From the human T2T-CHM13v2.0 reference genome, Homo sapiens, in the NCBI RefSeq assembly GCF_009914755.1, contig NC_060936.1: a stretch of 64,000 nucleotides of DNA; one strand, given 5' to 3'. The notes under the pieces were generated by a model, which did not search any database, was not told the origin of the DNA, and worked only from the letters and a program-made list of their open reading frames with translations. Within the stretch, counting starts at the first letter, position 1, and the number at the start of each line of letters is the position of its first letter. Below are positions 21,341-22,841 of the stretch, one piece after another. The position numbers and the translations under genes are program-made.

Positions 21341-21633
21341 TTAATATCACAATTTCGTTGTCCATTTATTCATTGATGGACACTGAAGTTGATTCCATAT
21401 CTTGCCTATTGTGAATAATGCTGCAATAAATGTAAAAGTGCAGATCTCTCTTCAAGACCCTGATTTCAACTCCTTTGAATATATATCCAGAAGTAGGATT
21501 GCTGGATCGTATGGTATTTCTGATTTAAATTTTTTGAGGTGTCTCCATACTATTTTCCATAGTGGTTGCACTGATTTTCATTTTCACCAACAGTGTACAA
21601 GGGTTCTCTTCTTCATATCCTTGCTTACACTTG

Positions 21634-22209
21634 TTTTCTTTTCTTTTTAATTTATAAAGAAAATAGGTTTAACTGGCTCACGATTGTCTGGGCTGTACAG
21701 GAAGCATGGCACCATCTGATTCTGGGGAGGTCTCAGGGAACTCTGACTTATGGCACAAGGCAAAGTGGTAGCAGGCACCTTCACATGGCTGGGAGGCTGT
21801 GTTTTGGGCCCTTTTGTCCATGGCTCTGATCCTTGCTCCAGAAGATAATCTCAGGTTTGGTAATGCAGTGTCCCAAGGATACCAAGCTGCTGTAGGTCTC
21901 CAGCATCATGTCCCTGTACAGGGTCTGCTAAGCATCATCCAGATCTGGTCACTCCTCCCAAGTGAAGTCCTTAGCCACATCCTCAAACAACACCAACACC
22001 AGAAATGTATTCATTTCTTTTGCTTTTGGAAACACATAGAAGGTTCTGGAATTATAGCAGAGATTTATTCATCTTTGCCACCCTTGGAAATGCACGGAGC
22101 ACTGGAGCACTATGGAAGCATAGCTTCAGGGATGCTGAACTCAACTGGAGACCTGCAGGGTGGTCAGGAGAGCATAGCTGCTGAAATACAGTAACAAAAT
22201 GGCAGAAAT
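21634..22209 (-). pseudogene. Processed KRAB-ZNF pseudogene (ZNF717-like): 5'UTR + KRAB-A + KRAB-B joined to an MST LTR, with A tail
   Basis: From ATG 22014: [56 protein letters not shown], frameshift, then EQGSEPW. No intron between KRAB-A and B; stops at 21951-21949 and 21930-21928. Confidence 0.9.
21649..21788 (-). mobile_element. MST (MSTA/B) LTR 3' part forming the terminal segment of the retrocopy
   Basis: Minus strand ccatgtgaaggtgcctgc...gtgccatgcttcctgtacagcc...gagccagttaaacctattttctttataaatt, then A-rich tail. Confidence 0.85.
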
Positions 22210-22308
22210 CCCCTCCCTCCCTCCCTCCCTCCCTCCCTCCCTTCCTCCCTCCCTCCCTCCCTTCCTTCCTCTCTCTTTCTCTCCCTCTTTCTCTCTCTCT
22301 TTCTTTCT
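22210..22308. repeat. (CCCT)n/CT-rich microsatellite
   Basis: Direct reading; lies at the 5' junction of the retrocopy. Confidence 0.9.
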
Positions 22309-22478
22309 TACACTAGCCATCCTATCAGGTGTGAGGTGGTATCTCATTGTGGCTTTGATTTGCATTTCCTTGACGGATTAGTGACGTTGAACATCTTTTC
22401 ATACACCTCTTGGCCATTTTTATATCTTCTTTGAACAAATATCTAATCAGCTCCTTTGCCCATTTAAAAAATCATGTT

Positions 22479-22841
<363 letters not shown>

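What the first reader, a model, noticed from the sequence alone, without database searches (positions are those of the whole stretch)
21634..22209. Fossil mRNA of a KRAB-only isoform: ZNF717-like KRAB exons joined to an MST LTR and polyadenylated there, then retroposed into an L1
Seen on the minus strand: a 5' leader, ATG at 22014, then contiguous KRAB-A and KRAB-B ([54 protein letters not shown]) with no intron. After ...cagcctcccag (21789) it switches to MST LTR sequence instead of a zinc-finger exon. The LTR stops at gttaaacctattttctttataaatt and an A-rich tail follows (21648-21634). The host L1MA resumes on both sides. Established: KRAB-A and KRAB-B are separate exons; MaLR LTRs carry an ATTAAA-type poly(A) signal here; the peptide resembles the ZNF717 KRAB. 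Inference: the parent gene used an intronic LTR as an alternative terminal exon, giving a finger-less KRAB protein that might still bind TRIM28/KAP1. An LTR would thus truncate a member of the family that silences LTRs. The ORF track misses it because of two stops and a frameshift.
Basis: partly seen in the sequence, partly recalled or inferred. Interest (0 to 1): 0.85.

Follow-up and report, generated by a model that had tools for sequence, protein, structure and literature searches.

The report
Fossil KRAB mRNA ending in LTR
This is a dead, reverse-transcribed copy of an ancient zinc-finger-gene messenger RNA that had been spliced into a retrotransposon LTR and cut off there, before its zinc fingers; it is a tidy example of a known process and not a new kind of element.

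Summary
On the minus strand, 22209-21649 is an intron-less copy of a ZNF717-family KRAB zinc-finger mRNA. It has a leader, two exon-2-like units (ATG at 22014), KRAB-A (21999-21873; Pfam KRAB E=1.3e-16) and KRAB-B (21872-21789). These are followed by the last 140 nt of an MST-type MaLR LTR (21788-21649).

The KRAB-B/LTR junction lies exactly where six genomic paralogues have their KRAB-B splice donor. The LTR part begins just after a pyrimidine tract plus CAG found in many LTR copies. It ends at ATAAATT, where 27 other genomic LTR pieces also give way to an A-run. An imperfect 11-nt target-site duplication in the host L1 brackets the insert.

Two corrections:
- The "A-rich tail" is mostly the L1's own duplicated target, not a demonstrable poly(A) tail.
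- The parent is unidentified. ZNF717 and a chr1 paralogue are equally close (about 83%), and no examined paralogue has an MST after KRAB-B.

Best reading (about 0.78): an L1-made retrocopy of a cis-spliced mRNA that ended in an LTR. LTR-derived terminal exons, KRAB-only isoforms and an LTR trap in a KRAB-ZFP gene are all in print. This is a new member of a known kind, of modest interest.

The parts
22299..22309 (-). Upstream copy of the target-site duplication (AAGAAAGAAAG) at the end of the 5' L1 flank
   Evidence: The alignment of both flanks with 4 uninterrupted L1 copies shows the same L1 segment present on both sides of the insert. Coordinates.
22210..22298 (-). Purine-rich (GA)n/(GGGA)n microsatellite between the upstream duplicate and the start of the cDNA. 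Origin unexplained.
   Evidence: Absent at this position from the 4 intact L1 copies. Sequence.
22124..22209 (-). First leader segment (exon-1-like), ending ...CCCTGAAG
   Evidence: Unique in the genome. Weak collinear similarity to the leader of the chr11 retrocopy L022 (score 28 against shuffles 17.9 +/- 2.8, max 32). Not significant against the ZNF717 5' region.
22058..22123 (-). Exon-2-like unit A (CTATGC...AATAAATCTCTG) with its own ATG, which opens a short upstream ORF
   Evidence: Matches ZNF717 exon 2 (leader-only score 49 against shuffles 22.4 +/- 3.3, max 41). Matches unit B (25 against 12.9 +/- 2.3, max 22).
22000..22057 (-). Exon 2 (unit B), containing the start codon at 22014-22012
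   Evidence: 75-85% identical to the exon flanked by cag| and |gtgagt in the ZNF717 locus and in the chr22 paralogue. The similarity starts and stops at those splice sites.
21873..21999 (-). KRAB-A exon, 127 nt, with TGA and TAG stops
   Evidence: Pfam PF01352 E=1.3e-16. 83-85% identical to the KRAB-A exons on chr1, chr3, chr14 and chr22. Edges match acag| and |gtgagt of the ZNF717 locus.
21789..21872 (-). KRAB-B exon, 84 nt, with a 4-nt frameshifting gap, ending ...AGCCTCCCAG
   Evidence: Six genomic loci are shown. Five end ...CAG|GT at the homologous base: chr1 AGAGCCTCCCAG|GTTAGT, chr10 AGCCTCTCAG|GTCAGT, ZNF717 GACTTTCAG|GTCAGT, and likewise chr14 and chr22b. chr22a reads ...CAA|GT.
21649..21788 (-). 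3' 140 nt of an MST-type MaLR LTR used as terminal exon. Starts CCATGTGAAGG, carries GTTAAA, ends ATAAATT.
   Evidence: 81-88% identical to many genomic LTR copies. 14 of 14 aligned copies continue past ATAAATT with non-A LTR sequence. 28 genomic places, this one included, have ATAAATT followed by an A-run, against 0 for the reversed control. 8 of 8 sampled places confirm this.
21638..21648 (-). Downstream copy of the target-site duplication (AAAAAGAAAAG). Any poly(A) remnant cannot be told apart from it.
   Evidence: alignment with intact L1 copies. Coordinates.
21440..21637 (-). Host L1 (ORF2 3' region) resuming downstream. The upstream L1 flank is about 22310-22448.
   Evidence: 5654 first-look candidates in the genome; all 40 scored match at 78-83%. 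Both flanks are collinear with intact L1 copies. Subfamily not determined.

Best explanation
A gene of the ZNF717 subfamily of KRAB zinc-finger genes was transcribed in the germ line. Its pre-mRNA was spliced exon 1 - exon 2-like unit - exon 2 - KRAB-A - KRAB-B. The KRAB-B donor was then joined not to the zinc-finger exon but to a 3' splice site inside a same-sense MST-type MaLR LTR. The transcript was cleaved and polyadenylated at that LTR's own poly(A) site, about 19 nt after the (A/G)TTAAA hexamer.

This short mRNA encodes KRAB-A and KRAB-B plus a short LTR-encoded tail and no fingers. The L1 machinery reverse-transcribed it into an A-rich site inside an older L1, creating an 11-nt target-site duplication. 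The copy has since decayed (two stops, one frameshift, end branch about 0.12 changes per site).

Shown:
- The exon-exon junctions.
- The exact donor coincidence.
- The acceptor-like site in the LTR family.
- Recurrent use of the poly(A) site.
- The target-site duplication.

Inferred:
- That the LTR lay in cis downstream of KRAB-B in the parent.
- Whether it was an alternative or the only 3' end.
- Which gene was the parent.
- Any activity of the protein.
For: 1. Intron loss at real splice sites. Exon 2/KRAB-A, KRAB-A/KRAB-B and the edges of exon 2 coincide with AG and GT sites in the ZNF717 locus and its paralogues.
2. The KRAB-B to LTR switch at 21789/21788 falls exactly at the exon end. Five of the six genomic loci shown end ...CAG|GT there (chr22a reads CAA|GT). 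The chr1 copy shares the identical last 10 bases, AGCCTCCCAG. A second retrocopy on chr11 (L022) continues from the same ...TCTCCCAG into zinc-finger-exon sequence.
3. In 5 of 14 aligned LTR copies a CAG sits immediately before the base where the window's LTR part begins. It is preceded by a pyrimidine-rich run. Genome-wide, CTGCTCCAGCCATGTGA occurs 99 times and the CTG variant 84 times, with reversed controls at 0.
4. The LTR part stops at ATAAATT, whereas 14 of 14 genomic copies read on. 27 other places have the same end followed by an A-run, control 0. 8 of those 27 were inspected and all 8 confirm it. They include MaLR 3' ends and three L1 copies with the LTR piece after their own 3' end.
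5. The insert interrupts an L1 cleanly, with an 11-nt imperfect duplication of an A-rich target.
6. The mechanism is established in kind. 639 human poly(A) sites lie in LTR-class elements, with MaLR the top family (PMC2553571, passages and Table 1). Sense intronic LTRs supply acceptor plus poly(A) (PMC1794541, passages).
Against: - No parent locus with the LTR was found. The intron after KRAB-B holds no MST-type LTR in the chr3 (ZNF717, 1.9 kb), chr1 (7.7 kb), chr10 (1.9 kb), chr14, chr22a and chr22b loci, nor in the rest of the 8-20 kb fetched downstream. The exception is two distant MaLR LTRs (68-71% to another LTR, one of them same-sense) about 14 kb past the start of the ZNF717 finger exon.
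- The best genomic KRAB matches are only 83-85%. The tree leaves the copy in a polytomy.
- The junction shares TCCCAG-like bases with both partners. A microhomology-guided join therefore cannot be excluded from sequence alone.
- No clear poly(A) tail survives.
- The 14 LTR copies were picked by similarity to the window, which biases the 5 of 14 count.
Confidence: 0.78

Rival explanations
1. This variant is nested inside the best explanation. The parent was not a full-length zinc-finger gene using an alternative end. It was a partial duplicate, or a gene whose finger exon was already lost, and the LTR was its only 3' exon. The fossil then records a KRAB-only gene, not an isoform.
For: No extant paralogue has an LTR between KRAB-B and the finger exon. 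The family has been copied repeatedly to other chromosomes: chr14, chr21 and chr22 copies. It shows internal exon duplications.
Against: All six genomic paralogue loci examined still have a finger exon 1.9-7.7 kb after KRAB-B. Nothing positive points to a finger-less parent.
Confidence: 0.25
2. RNA-level chimera without cis-splicing. L1 reverse transcriptase began on an LTR-terminated polyadenylated RNA and switched template to a KRAB zinc-finger RNA. Alternatively, the two RNAs were trans-spliced.
For: The junction has shared bases (window ...CCTCCCAG|CCATG; LTR copies ...CTCCAG|CCATG), which could guide a switch. No cis parent was found. That template-switch chimeric retrocopies exist is recalled knowledge, not checked here.
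Against: A switch would have to leave the first template exactly at an acceptor-like site. It would also have to land exactly on the last base of the KRAB-B exon. Two exact coincidences with splice sites are what splicing predicts, not template switching.
Confidence: 0.08
3. In-place history. A longer retrocopy was inserted, an LTR element later landed in it, and deletions removed the finger region, the 5' part of the LTR and its U5 end.
For: The chr11 retrocopy L022 shows that a full LTR can land in the KRAB-B tail of such a copy. There it has intact TG...CA ends and a 5-bp flanking repeat matching at 4 of 5 bases.
Against: Here the LTR lacks both ends. Its left edge is the exon end, and its right edge is the poly(A) site and abuts the target-site duplicate. 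That would need three precise deletions.
Confidence: 0.04

Closest known systems
L1-mediated processed pseudogenes (retrocopies) that preserve alternative mRNA forms
   Same: Intron-less exons joined at real splice sites, insertion at an A-rich target with a target-site duplication, decay by stops and a frameshift.
   Different: The last exon is a retrotransposon LTR instead of the gene's own 3' exon. No poly(A) tail is distinguishable, and the parent is not identifiable in the same genome.
TE-derived 'skipped/hidden terminal exon' poly(A) sites, with MaLR LTRs the leading LTR family (PMC2553571; PMC1794541)
   Same: A sense-strand LTR supplies a 3' splice site and its own poly(A) signal and site, so the host mRNA is truncated.
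   Different: Those cases are living transcripts at known loci. Here only the retroposed product survives, and the cis arrangement is inferred.
Mouse Zfp69 trapped by an intronic IAPLTR1a (PMC2696593)
   Same: An LTR element in an intron of a KRAB zinc-finger gene acts as a gene trap through a splice acceptor and polyadenylation (abstract and passages).
   Different: The Zfp69 trap lies before the KRAB exons, so its product lacks KRAB and fingers. Here both KRAB exons are kept and only the fingers are lost. The LTR family, host and age also differ.
KRAB-only (KRAB-O, DBD-minus) products of C2H2 zinc-finger genes
   Same: The predicted product has KRAB-A and KRAB-B without fingers. Such isoforms are widely annotated: 310 expressed DBD-minus isoforms of C2H2 genes in bioRxiv 10.1101/2024.11.28.625692 (passages), and KRAB-O in PMC3579818 (passage).
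   Different: Here the evidence is a decayed DNA fossil. No protein, expression or TRIM28 binding was tested.

Membership tests
Processed pseudogene / L1-mediated retrocopy | Exons joined without introns at the parent family's splice sites | tested here: met
   The exon 2 edges, exon 2/KRAB-A and KRAB-A/KRAB-B junctions match AG and GT sites in the ZNF717 locus and its paralogues.
Processed pseudogene / L1-mediated retrocopy | Target-site duplication flanking the insert | tested here: met
   AAGAAAGAAAG (22309-22299) and AAAAAGAAAAG (21648-21638) both align to one A-rich L1 segment in 4 intact L1 copies. The repeat is imperfect.
Processed pseudogene / L1-mediated retrocopy | 3' poly(A) tail | tested here: inconclusive
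   The A-rich stretch after the LTR is fully accounted for by L1 target sequence. No surplus A's remain.
KRAB domain (Pfam PF01352) | Profile match above the curated cut-off | tested here: met
   E=1.3e-16, 60.4 bits against 20.4, profile positions 1-41 of 42, with the two stops read as X.
Copy of ZNF717 itself | Closer to ZNF717 than to any other locus | tested here: not met
   KRAB-A+B identity is 83.0% to the chr3 locus and 83.2% to the chr1 paralogue. In the tree it sits in a 96/96 clade with chr10, chr1, the chr11 retrocopy and the ZNF717 group, but inside an unresolved polytomy. The chr3 locus is called ZNF717 from coordinates only (ZNF717 variants at chr3:75.786-75.788 Mb, 3p12.3, in PMC5704032).
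Copy of ZNF717 itself | Parent has a same-sense MST-type LTR after KRAB-B | tested here: not met
   There is none in the 1.9-kb intron or the next 8 kb. Two distant MaLR LTRs, one of them same-sense, lie about 14 kb beyond the start of the finger exon.
MaLR (MST-type) LTR | Sequence similarity to the dispersed LTR family | tested here: met
   40 scored genome hits at 81-88% over 124-148 nt. 14 copies aligned. A 20-mer from the piece occurs 1052 times. The names 'MST' and 'MaLR' are recalled, not assigned by a repeat library.
LTR-derived terminal exon | Upstream partner ends at a splice donor | tested here: met
   of six genomic loci shown, five end |GT at the homologous base with ...CAG before it, and chr22a reads CAA|GT.
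LTR-derived terminal exon | LTR part begins after a usable acceptor (pyrimidine tract plus AG) | tested here: met
   5 of 14 aligned copies have CAG there. 99 exact genome matches to the CAG form against 84 to the CTG form. Actual splicing at this site was not tested.
LTR-derived terminal exon | Ends at the LTR's own poly(A) site | tested here: met
LTR-derived terminal exon | Gene and LTR in cis at a source locus | tested here: not met
   Not found at the six paralogue loci examined. The parent is unknown, so this is absence of evidence.
Template-switch chimeric retrocopy | Junction unrelated to splice sites | tested here: not met
   The junction coincides with a donor on one side and an acceptor-like site on the other.

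The most novel reading that the evidence does not exclude
The fossil records a once-abundant germ-line isoform in which a sense MST-type LTR converted a ZNF717-family repressor into a finger-less KRAB protein with an LTR-encoded tail. In the present sequence, the KRAB-B frame stays open through all 140 nt of LTR to a TAA completed at the cleavage site. Made during the period when MaLR elements were spreading, such a protein could have titrated TRIM28/KAP1 away from DNA-bound KZNFs. That would be an LTR blunting the very system that silences LTRs.
Probability: 0.08. Interest if true: 0.6.

Novelty: new member of a known kind. Interest (0 to 1): 0.3.

Why it matters
Retrocopies freeze mRNA forms that no longer exist. 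This one shows that tens of millions of years ago a ZNF717-family KRAB zinc-finger gene produced, in the germ line, a transcript that kept both KRAB exons and lost all fingers, because a MaLR LTR supplied a 3' splice site and a poly(A) site. It adds a dated, base-exact example to two known themes: LTR-derived terminal exons and KRAB-only products. It also pinpoints a concrete acceptor (pyrimidine tract plus CAG before CCATGTGA) and cleavage site (after ATAAATT) in MST-type LTRs that can be looked for in present-day transcripts. The locus itself lies in a gene desert, is decayed and is very unlikely to function.

Tried and rejected
- **Leader in the genome.** The 202-nt leader gave only itself and one 51-nt hit on chr3:101.62 Mb.
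- **Exon-1-like segment.** Against the ZNF717 and chr22 5' regions it was not above shuffles (24 against 21.4 +/- 2.5; 22 against 21.6 +/- 2.6). Homology to ZNF717 exon 1 is therefore not claimed.
- **Exon-2-like unit A.** It was not significant against the ZNF717 'exon 1b' region (18 against 15.5 +/- 2.5) or against the stretch before exon 2 in L059 (18 against 14.1 +/- 2.4). My early idea that L059 shares the unit A/unit B junction is dropped to a weak lead.
- **Source LTR by best match.** The top copy (chr6:85.79 Mb, 88%) is not distinguishable from the bulk at 81-85%. Only 40 of 2682 candidates were scored.
- **20-mer scan for LTR copies near the paralogues.** It gave 1052 hits but only the first 100 were listed. 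On chr1 the nearest listed hit is about 227 kb from the paralogue and on the other strand. This says little.
- **Pfam on two L1-flank ORFs.** No family found.
- **Literature on ZNF717 isoforms.** 3 papers hold ZNF717 + KRAB + isoform, none relevant by listing. I found no paper describing this locus or a ZNF717-LTR transcript.
- **Not run.** Structure prediction, complex prediction and large protein searches would not bear on the question.

Full report
**What is in the sequence**

All of this is on the minus strand. An L1 is interrupted between about 22310 and 21637. The interrupting sequence reads, 5' to 3':
- an 89-nt purine microsatellite (22298-22210);
- an 86-nt leader segment (22209-22124);
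- two diverged exon-2-like units (22123-22058 and 22057-22000), the second carrying the ATG at 22014;
- KRAB-A (21999-21873, 127 nt);
- KRAB-B (21872-21789, 84 nt);
- 140 nt of LTR sequence (21788-21649).

The translation from the ATG reads [56 protein letters not shown]. With the stops as X it matches Pfam KRAB at E=1.3e-16. KRAB-B has a 4-nt gap relative to all 12 genomic loci in the alignment, which shifts the frame.

**It is a spliced cDNA copy**

The window's own genome could be searched. Results by part:
- The KRAB-A part matches exons on chr1:226.895 Mb, chr3:75.795 Mb, chr14:4.52 Mb and chr22:9.17 Mb at 83-85%.
- The KRAB-B part matches about 240-450 bp downstream of these at 84-85%.
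- In the chr3 locus the KRAB-A exon is bounded by acag| and |gtgagt, and KRAB-B by accag| and |gtcagt. In the window the two exons abut at exactly those bases.
- The ATG exon matches a 59-nt exon bounded by cag| and |gtgagt. That exon lies about 42-43 kb upstream of KRAB-A in the chr3 and chr22 loci, and the similarity starts and stops at those sites.
- The stretch just before it is a second, older copy of the same unit. Against ZNF717 exon 2 it scores 49, with shuffles at 22.4 +/- 3.3. Against the neighbouring unit it scores 25, with shuffles at 12.9 +/- 2.3.

I call the chr3 locus ZNF717 from position only. A paper lists ZNF717 coding variants at chr3:75.786-75.788 Mb, 3p12.3 (PMC5704032, passage). 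The finger exon I located starts at T2T chr3:75,792,609.

**The junction with the LTR**

Six genomic paralogues were lined up over the KRAB-B tail:

| Locus | KRAB-B end and what follows |
|---|---|
| chr1 | ...AGAGCCTCCCAG\|GTTAGT |
| chr10 | ...AGCCTCTCAG\|GTCAGT |
| ZNF717, chr14 and chr22b | ...GACTTTCAG\|GTCAGT |
| chr22a | ...GACTTTCAA\|GTCAGT (the donor-flanking G is changed) |
| window | ...CACAGCCTCCCAG\|CCATGTGAAGG |

The switch is therefore at the last base of the exon.

An independent retrocopy on chr11:40.59 Mb (L022) carries the same tail (...TCTCCCAG) and continues into sequence that matches the start of the finger exons of the paralogues. This shows what the normal mRNA looked like.

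On the LTR side, 14 genomic copies were aligned (82-88% to the window). They read ...ctcctgctcc(a/t)gCCATGTG. Five of the 14 have CAG directly before the base where the window's LTR part begins, behind a pyrimidine-rich run. These 14 were chosen by similarity to the window, so I also counted genome-wide. CTGCTCCAGCCATGTGA occurs 99 times and CTGCTCCTGCCATGTGA 84 times, with 0 for both reversed controls. The LTR family thus commonly carries a good-looking 3' splice site exactly there.

**The 3' end**

All 14 genomic copies continue after ATAAATT with further LTR sequence, whereas the window's copy stops there.

A pattern for 'LTR end followed by an A-run' found 28 places, the window included, and 0 in the reversed control. 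I inspected 8 of the other 27. All 8 have at least 9 A's after ATAAATT:
- two are LTRs present from their first base;
- three are L1 3' ends followed by the LTR piece, which looks like L1 read-through transcripts that ended in an LTR;
- three have other contexts;
- none starts at the CCATGTGA acceptor.

This shows that the base after ATAAATT is a recurrently used cleavage site. The hexamer about 19 nt upstream is ATTAAA in 10 of 14 copies and GTTAAA in the window and 2 copies.

**Insertion signature**

Four uninterrupted L1 copies read ...ggcta ttatc AAAAAGACAAAAGATAACAAGTG... across the site. The window's upstream flank ends ...ggcta gtgta AAGAAAGAAAG. The downstream flank starts AAAAAGAAAAG AAAACAAGTG. 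About 11 nt of A-rich L1 are therefore duplicated, as expected for L1-mediated insertion.

No extra poly(A) can be seen. The purine microsatellite next to the upstream duplicate is absent from the intact L1 copies and remains unexplained.

**Parent and age**

Over KRAB-A+B the copy is 83.2% identical to the chr1 locus, 83.0% to ZNF717 and 76.3% to the chr10 locus. ZNF717 and chr1 are 86.8% alike. A maximum-likelihood tree (15 rows, 223 columns) puts the copy in a well-supported clade (96/96) with chr10, chr1, the chr11 retrocopy and the ZNF717 group. Inside that clade it sits in an unresolved polytomy, with an end branch of 0.12. With a recalled neutral rate of about 1-2 x 10^-9 per site per year this suggests very roughly 50-120 million years.

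I looked for the source arrangement. The intron after KRAB-B is 1.9 kb in ZNF717, 7.7 kb on chr1, 1.9 kb on chr10, and about 2 kb on chr14 and at the two chr22 loci. None contains an MST-type LTR. Nor does the rest of the 8-20 kb fetched downstream, apart from two distant MaLR LTRs (one same-sense) about 14 kb past the ZNF717 finger-exon start that match only the last 32-35 nt of the window's piece. Because the true parent is not identified, this is absence of evidence.

**Mechanism and rivals**

Two exact coincidences with splice sites plus an end at a proven poly(A) site are what cis-splicing into an LTR terminal exon predicts. I give this 0.78.
- **Alternative or sole 3' end.** Whether the LTR was an alternative or the only 3' end of the parent is open. 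I give a nested variant 0.25.
- **Template switching or trans-splicing (0.08).** This would need the same two coincidences by luck. The shared TCCCAG-like bases at the junction are its only support.
- **An LTR landing in a longer retrocopy followed by three precise deletions (0.04).** This is contrived. L022 shows what a real LTR landing looks like: full LTR, TG...CA ends, short flanking repeat.

**The predicted product**

Whatever the phase at the KRAB-B end, the mRNA encodes KRAB-A and KRAB-B without fingers. The three frames into the LTR give tails of 2, 36 or 47 residues (my reading of the sequence; ORF list). In the present sequence the frame that holds EQGSEPW stays open through the whole LTR (67-aa ORF 21647-21850). 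It ends at a TAA made of the last T plus the following AA. About 10% of random 47-codon stretches would be open, and indels in the KRAB-B tail make the ancestral phase unknowable.

**Comparison with what is known**
- LTR-class elements hold 639 human poly(A) sites, with MaLR first among families (PMC2553571, passages and Table 1).
- Sense intronic LTRs are selected against because they offer acceptor plus poly(A) (PMC1794541, abstract and passages).
- A mouse KRAB-ZFP gene, Zfp69, is trapped by an intronic IAP LTR through exactly this mechanism (PMC2696593, abstract and passages).
- Finger-less KRAB isoforms are common in annotation (bioRxiv 10.1101/2024.11.28.625692, passages; PMC3579818, passage).
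- My searches found no description of this locus or of a ZNF717-LTR transcript. Supplements were not consulted.

**Verdict**

ZNF717 parentage and the 'intronic alternative exon' claim are not shown, and the functional story is speculative. It is a new member of a known kind, with interest about 0.3.

Not done, because the tools do not reach it: other species' genomes, repeat-library naming, and transcript data.

Noticed in passing
L005 1501-1765 (G000 chr3:75,794,878-75,795,142, minus strand): The ZNF717 locus holds two head-to-tail copies of the KRAB-A exon with no intron between them. The unit includes the last 4 intron bases, acag. The upstream copy carries a TAG stop, and only the downstream copy is followed by a GT donor. 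The chr22a paralogue shows the same doubling.
   Followed up: partly
L022 1000-2000 (G000 chr11:40.59 Mb, minus strand): A second, older ZNF717-family retrocopy. The leader, KRAB-A and KRAB-B are contiguous, but about 120 nt of intron upstream of KRAB-A are retained, suggesting an alternative acceptor. A full-length LTR with TG...CA ends is inserted in the KRAB-B tail between near-identical 5-bp repeats. After it the copy continues into finger-exon sequence.
   Followed up: partly
L059 5280-5650 (G000 chr3:101.62 Mb, minus strand): Three blocks lie 0.7 and 1.35 kb apart in the ZNF717 5' region (exon 1, a second 5' block, exon 2). Here they lie within about 370 nt, which looks like a fragment of another retrocopy that ends after exon 2. 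Its exon 2 is the best genomic match (83-85%) to the window's exon 2.
   Followed up: partly
L067, L068, L069 (G000 chr6:82.87 Mb, chr1:33.54 Mb, chr3:86.36 Mb): Three L1 3' ends, each with its own A-run, are followed by the same kind of MST-type LTR 3' piece, which ends at ATAAATT plus poly(A). They look like L1 copies carrying a 3' transduction that ended at an LTR poly(A) site.
   Followed up: no
window 22210-22298: An 89-nt (GA)n/(GGGA)n purine microsatellite sits between the upstream target-site duplicate and the first base of the cDNA. It is absent from intact L1 copies at this position. It may have grown out of the purine-rich duplicate or been added at insertion.
   Followed up: no
window 21647-21850, minus strand: A 67-aa open frame runs from the KRAB-B EQGSEPW frame through the entire LTR part. 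It ends at a TAA formed by the last LTR base plus the following AA. About a 10% chance event, and the ancestral phase is uncertain.
   Followed up: partly
window 22058-22123, minus strand: The extra exon-2-like unit has its own ATG followed by a stop six codons later, inside the next unit. It would act as a short upstream ORF ahead of the main start at 22014.
   Followed up: no
window about 22449-22813: An Alu-like sequence (ggccgggcgcggtgg... read on the plus strand) interrupts the same L1 just upstream of the retrocopy. It coincides with a stretch masked in NCBI's file.
   Followed up: no
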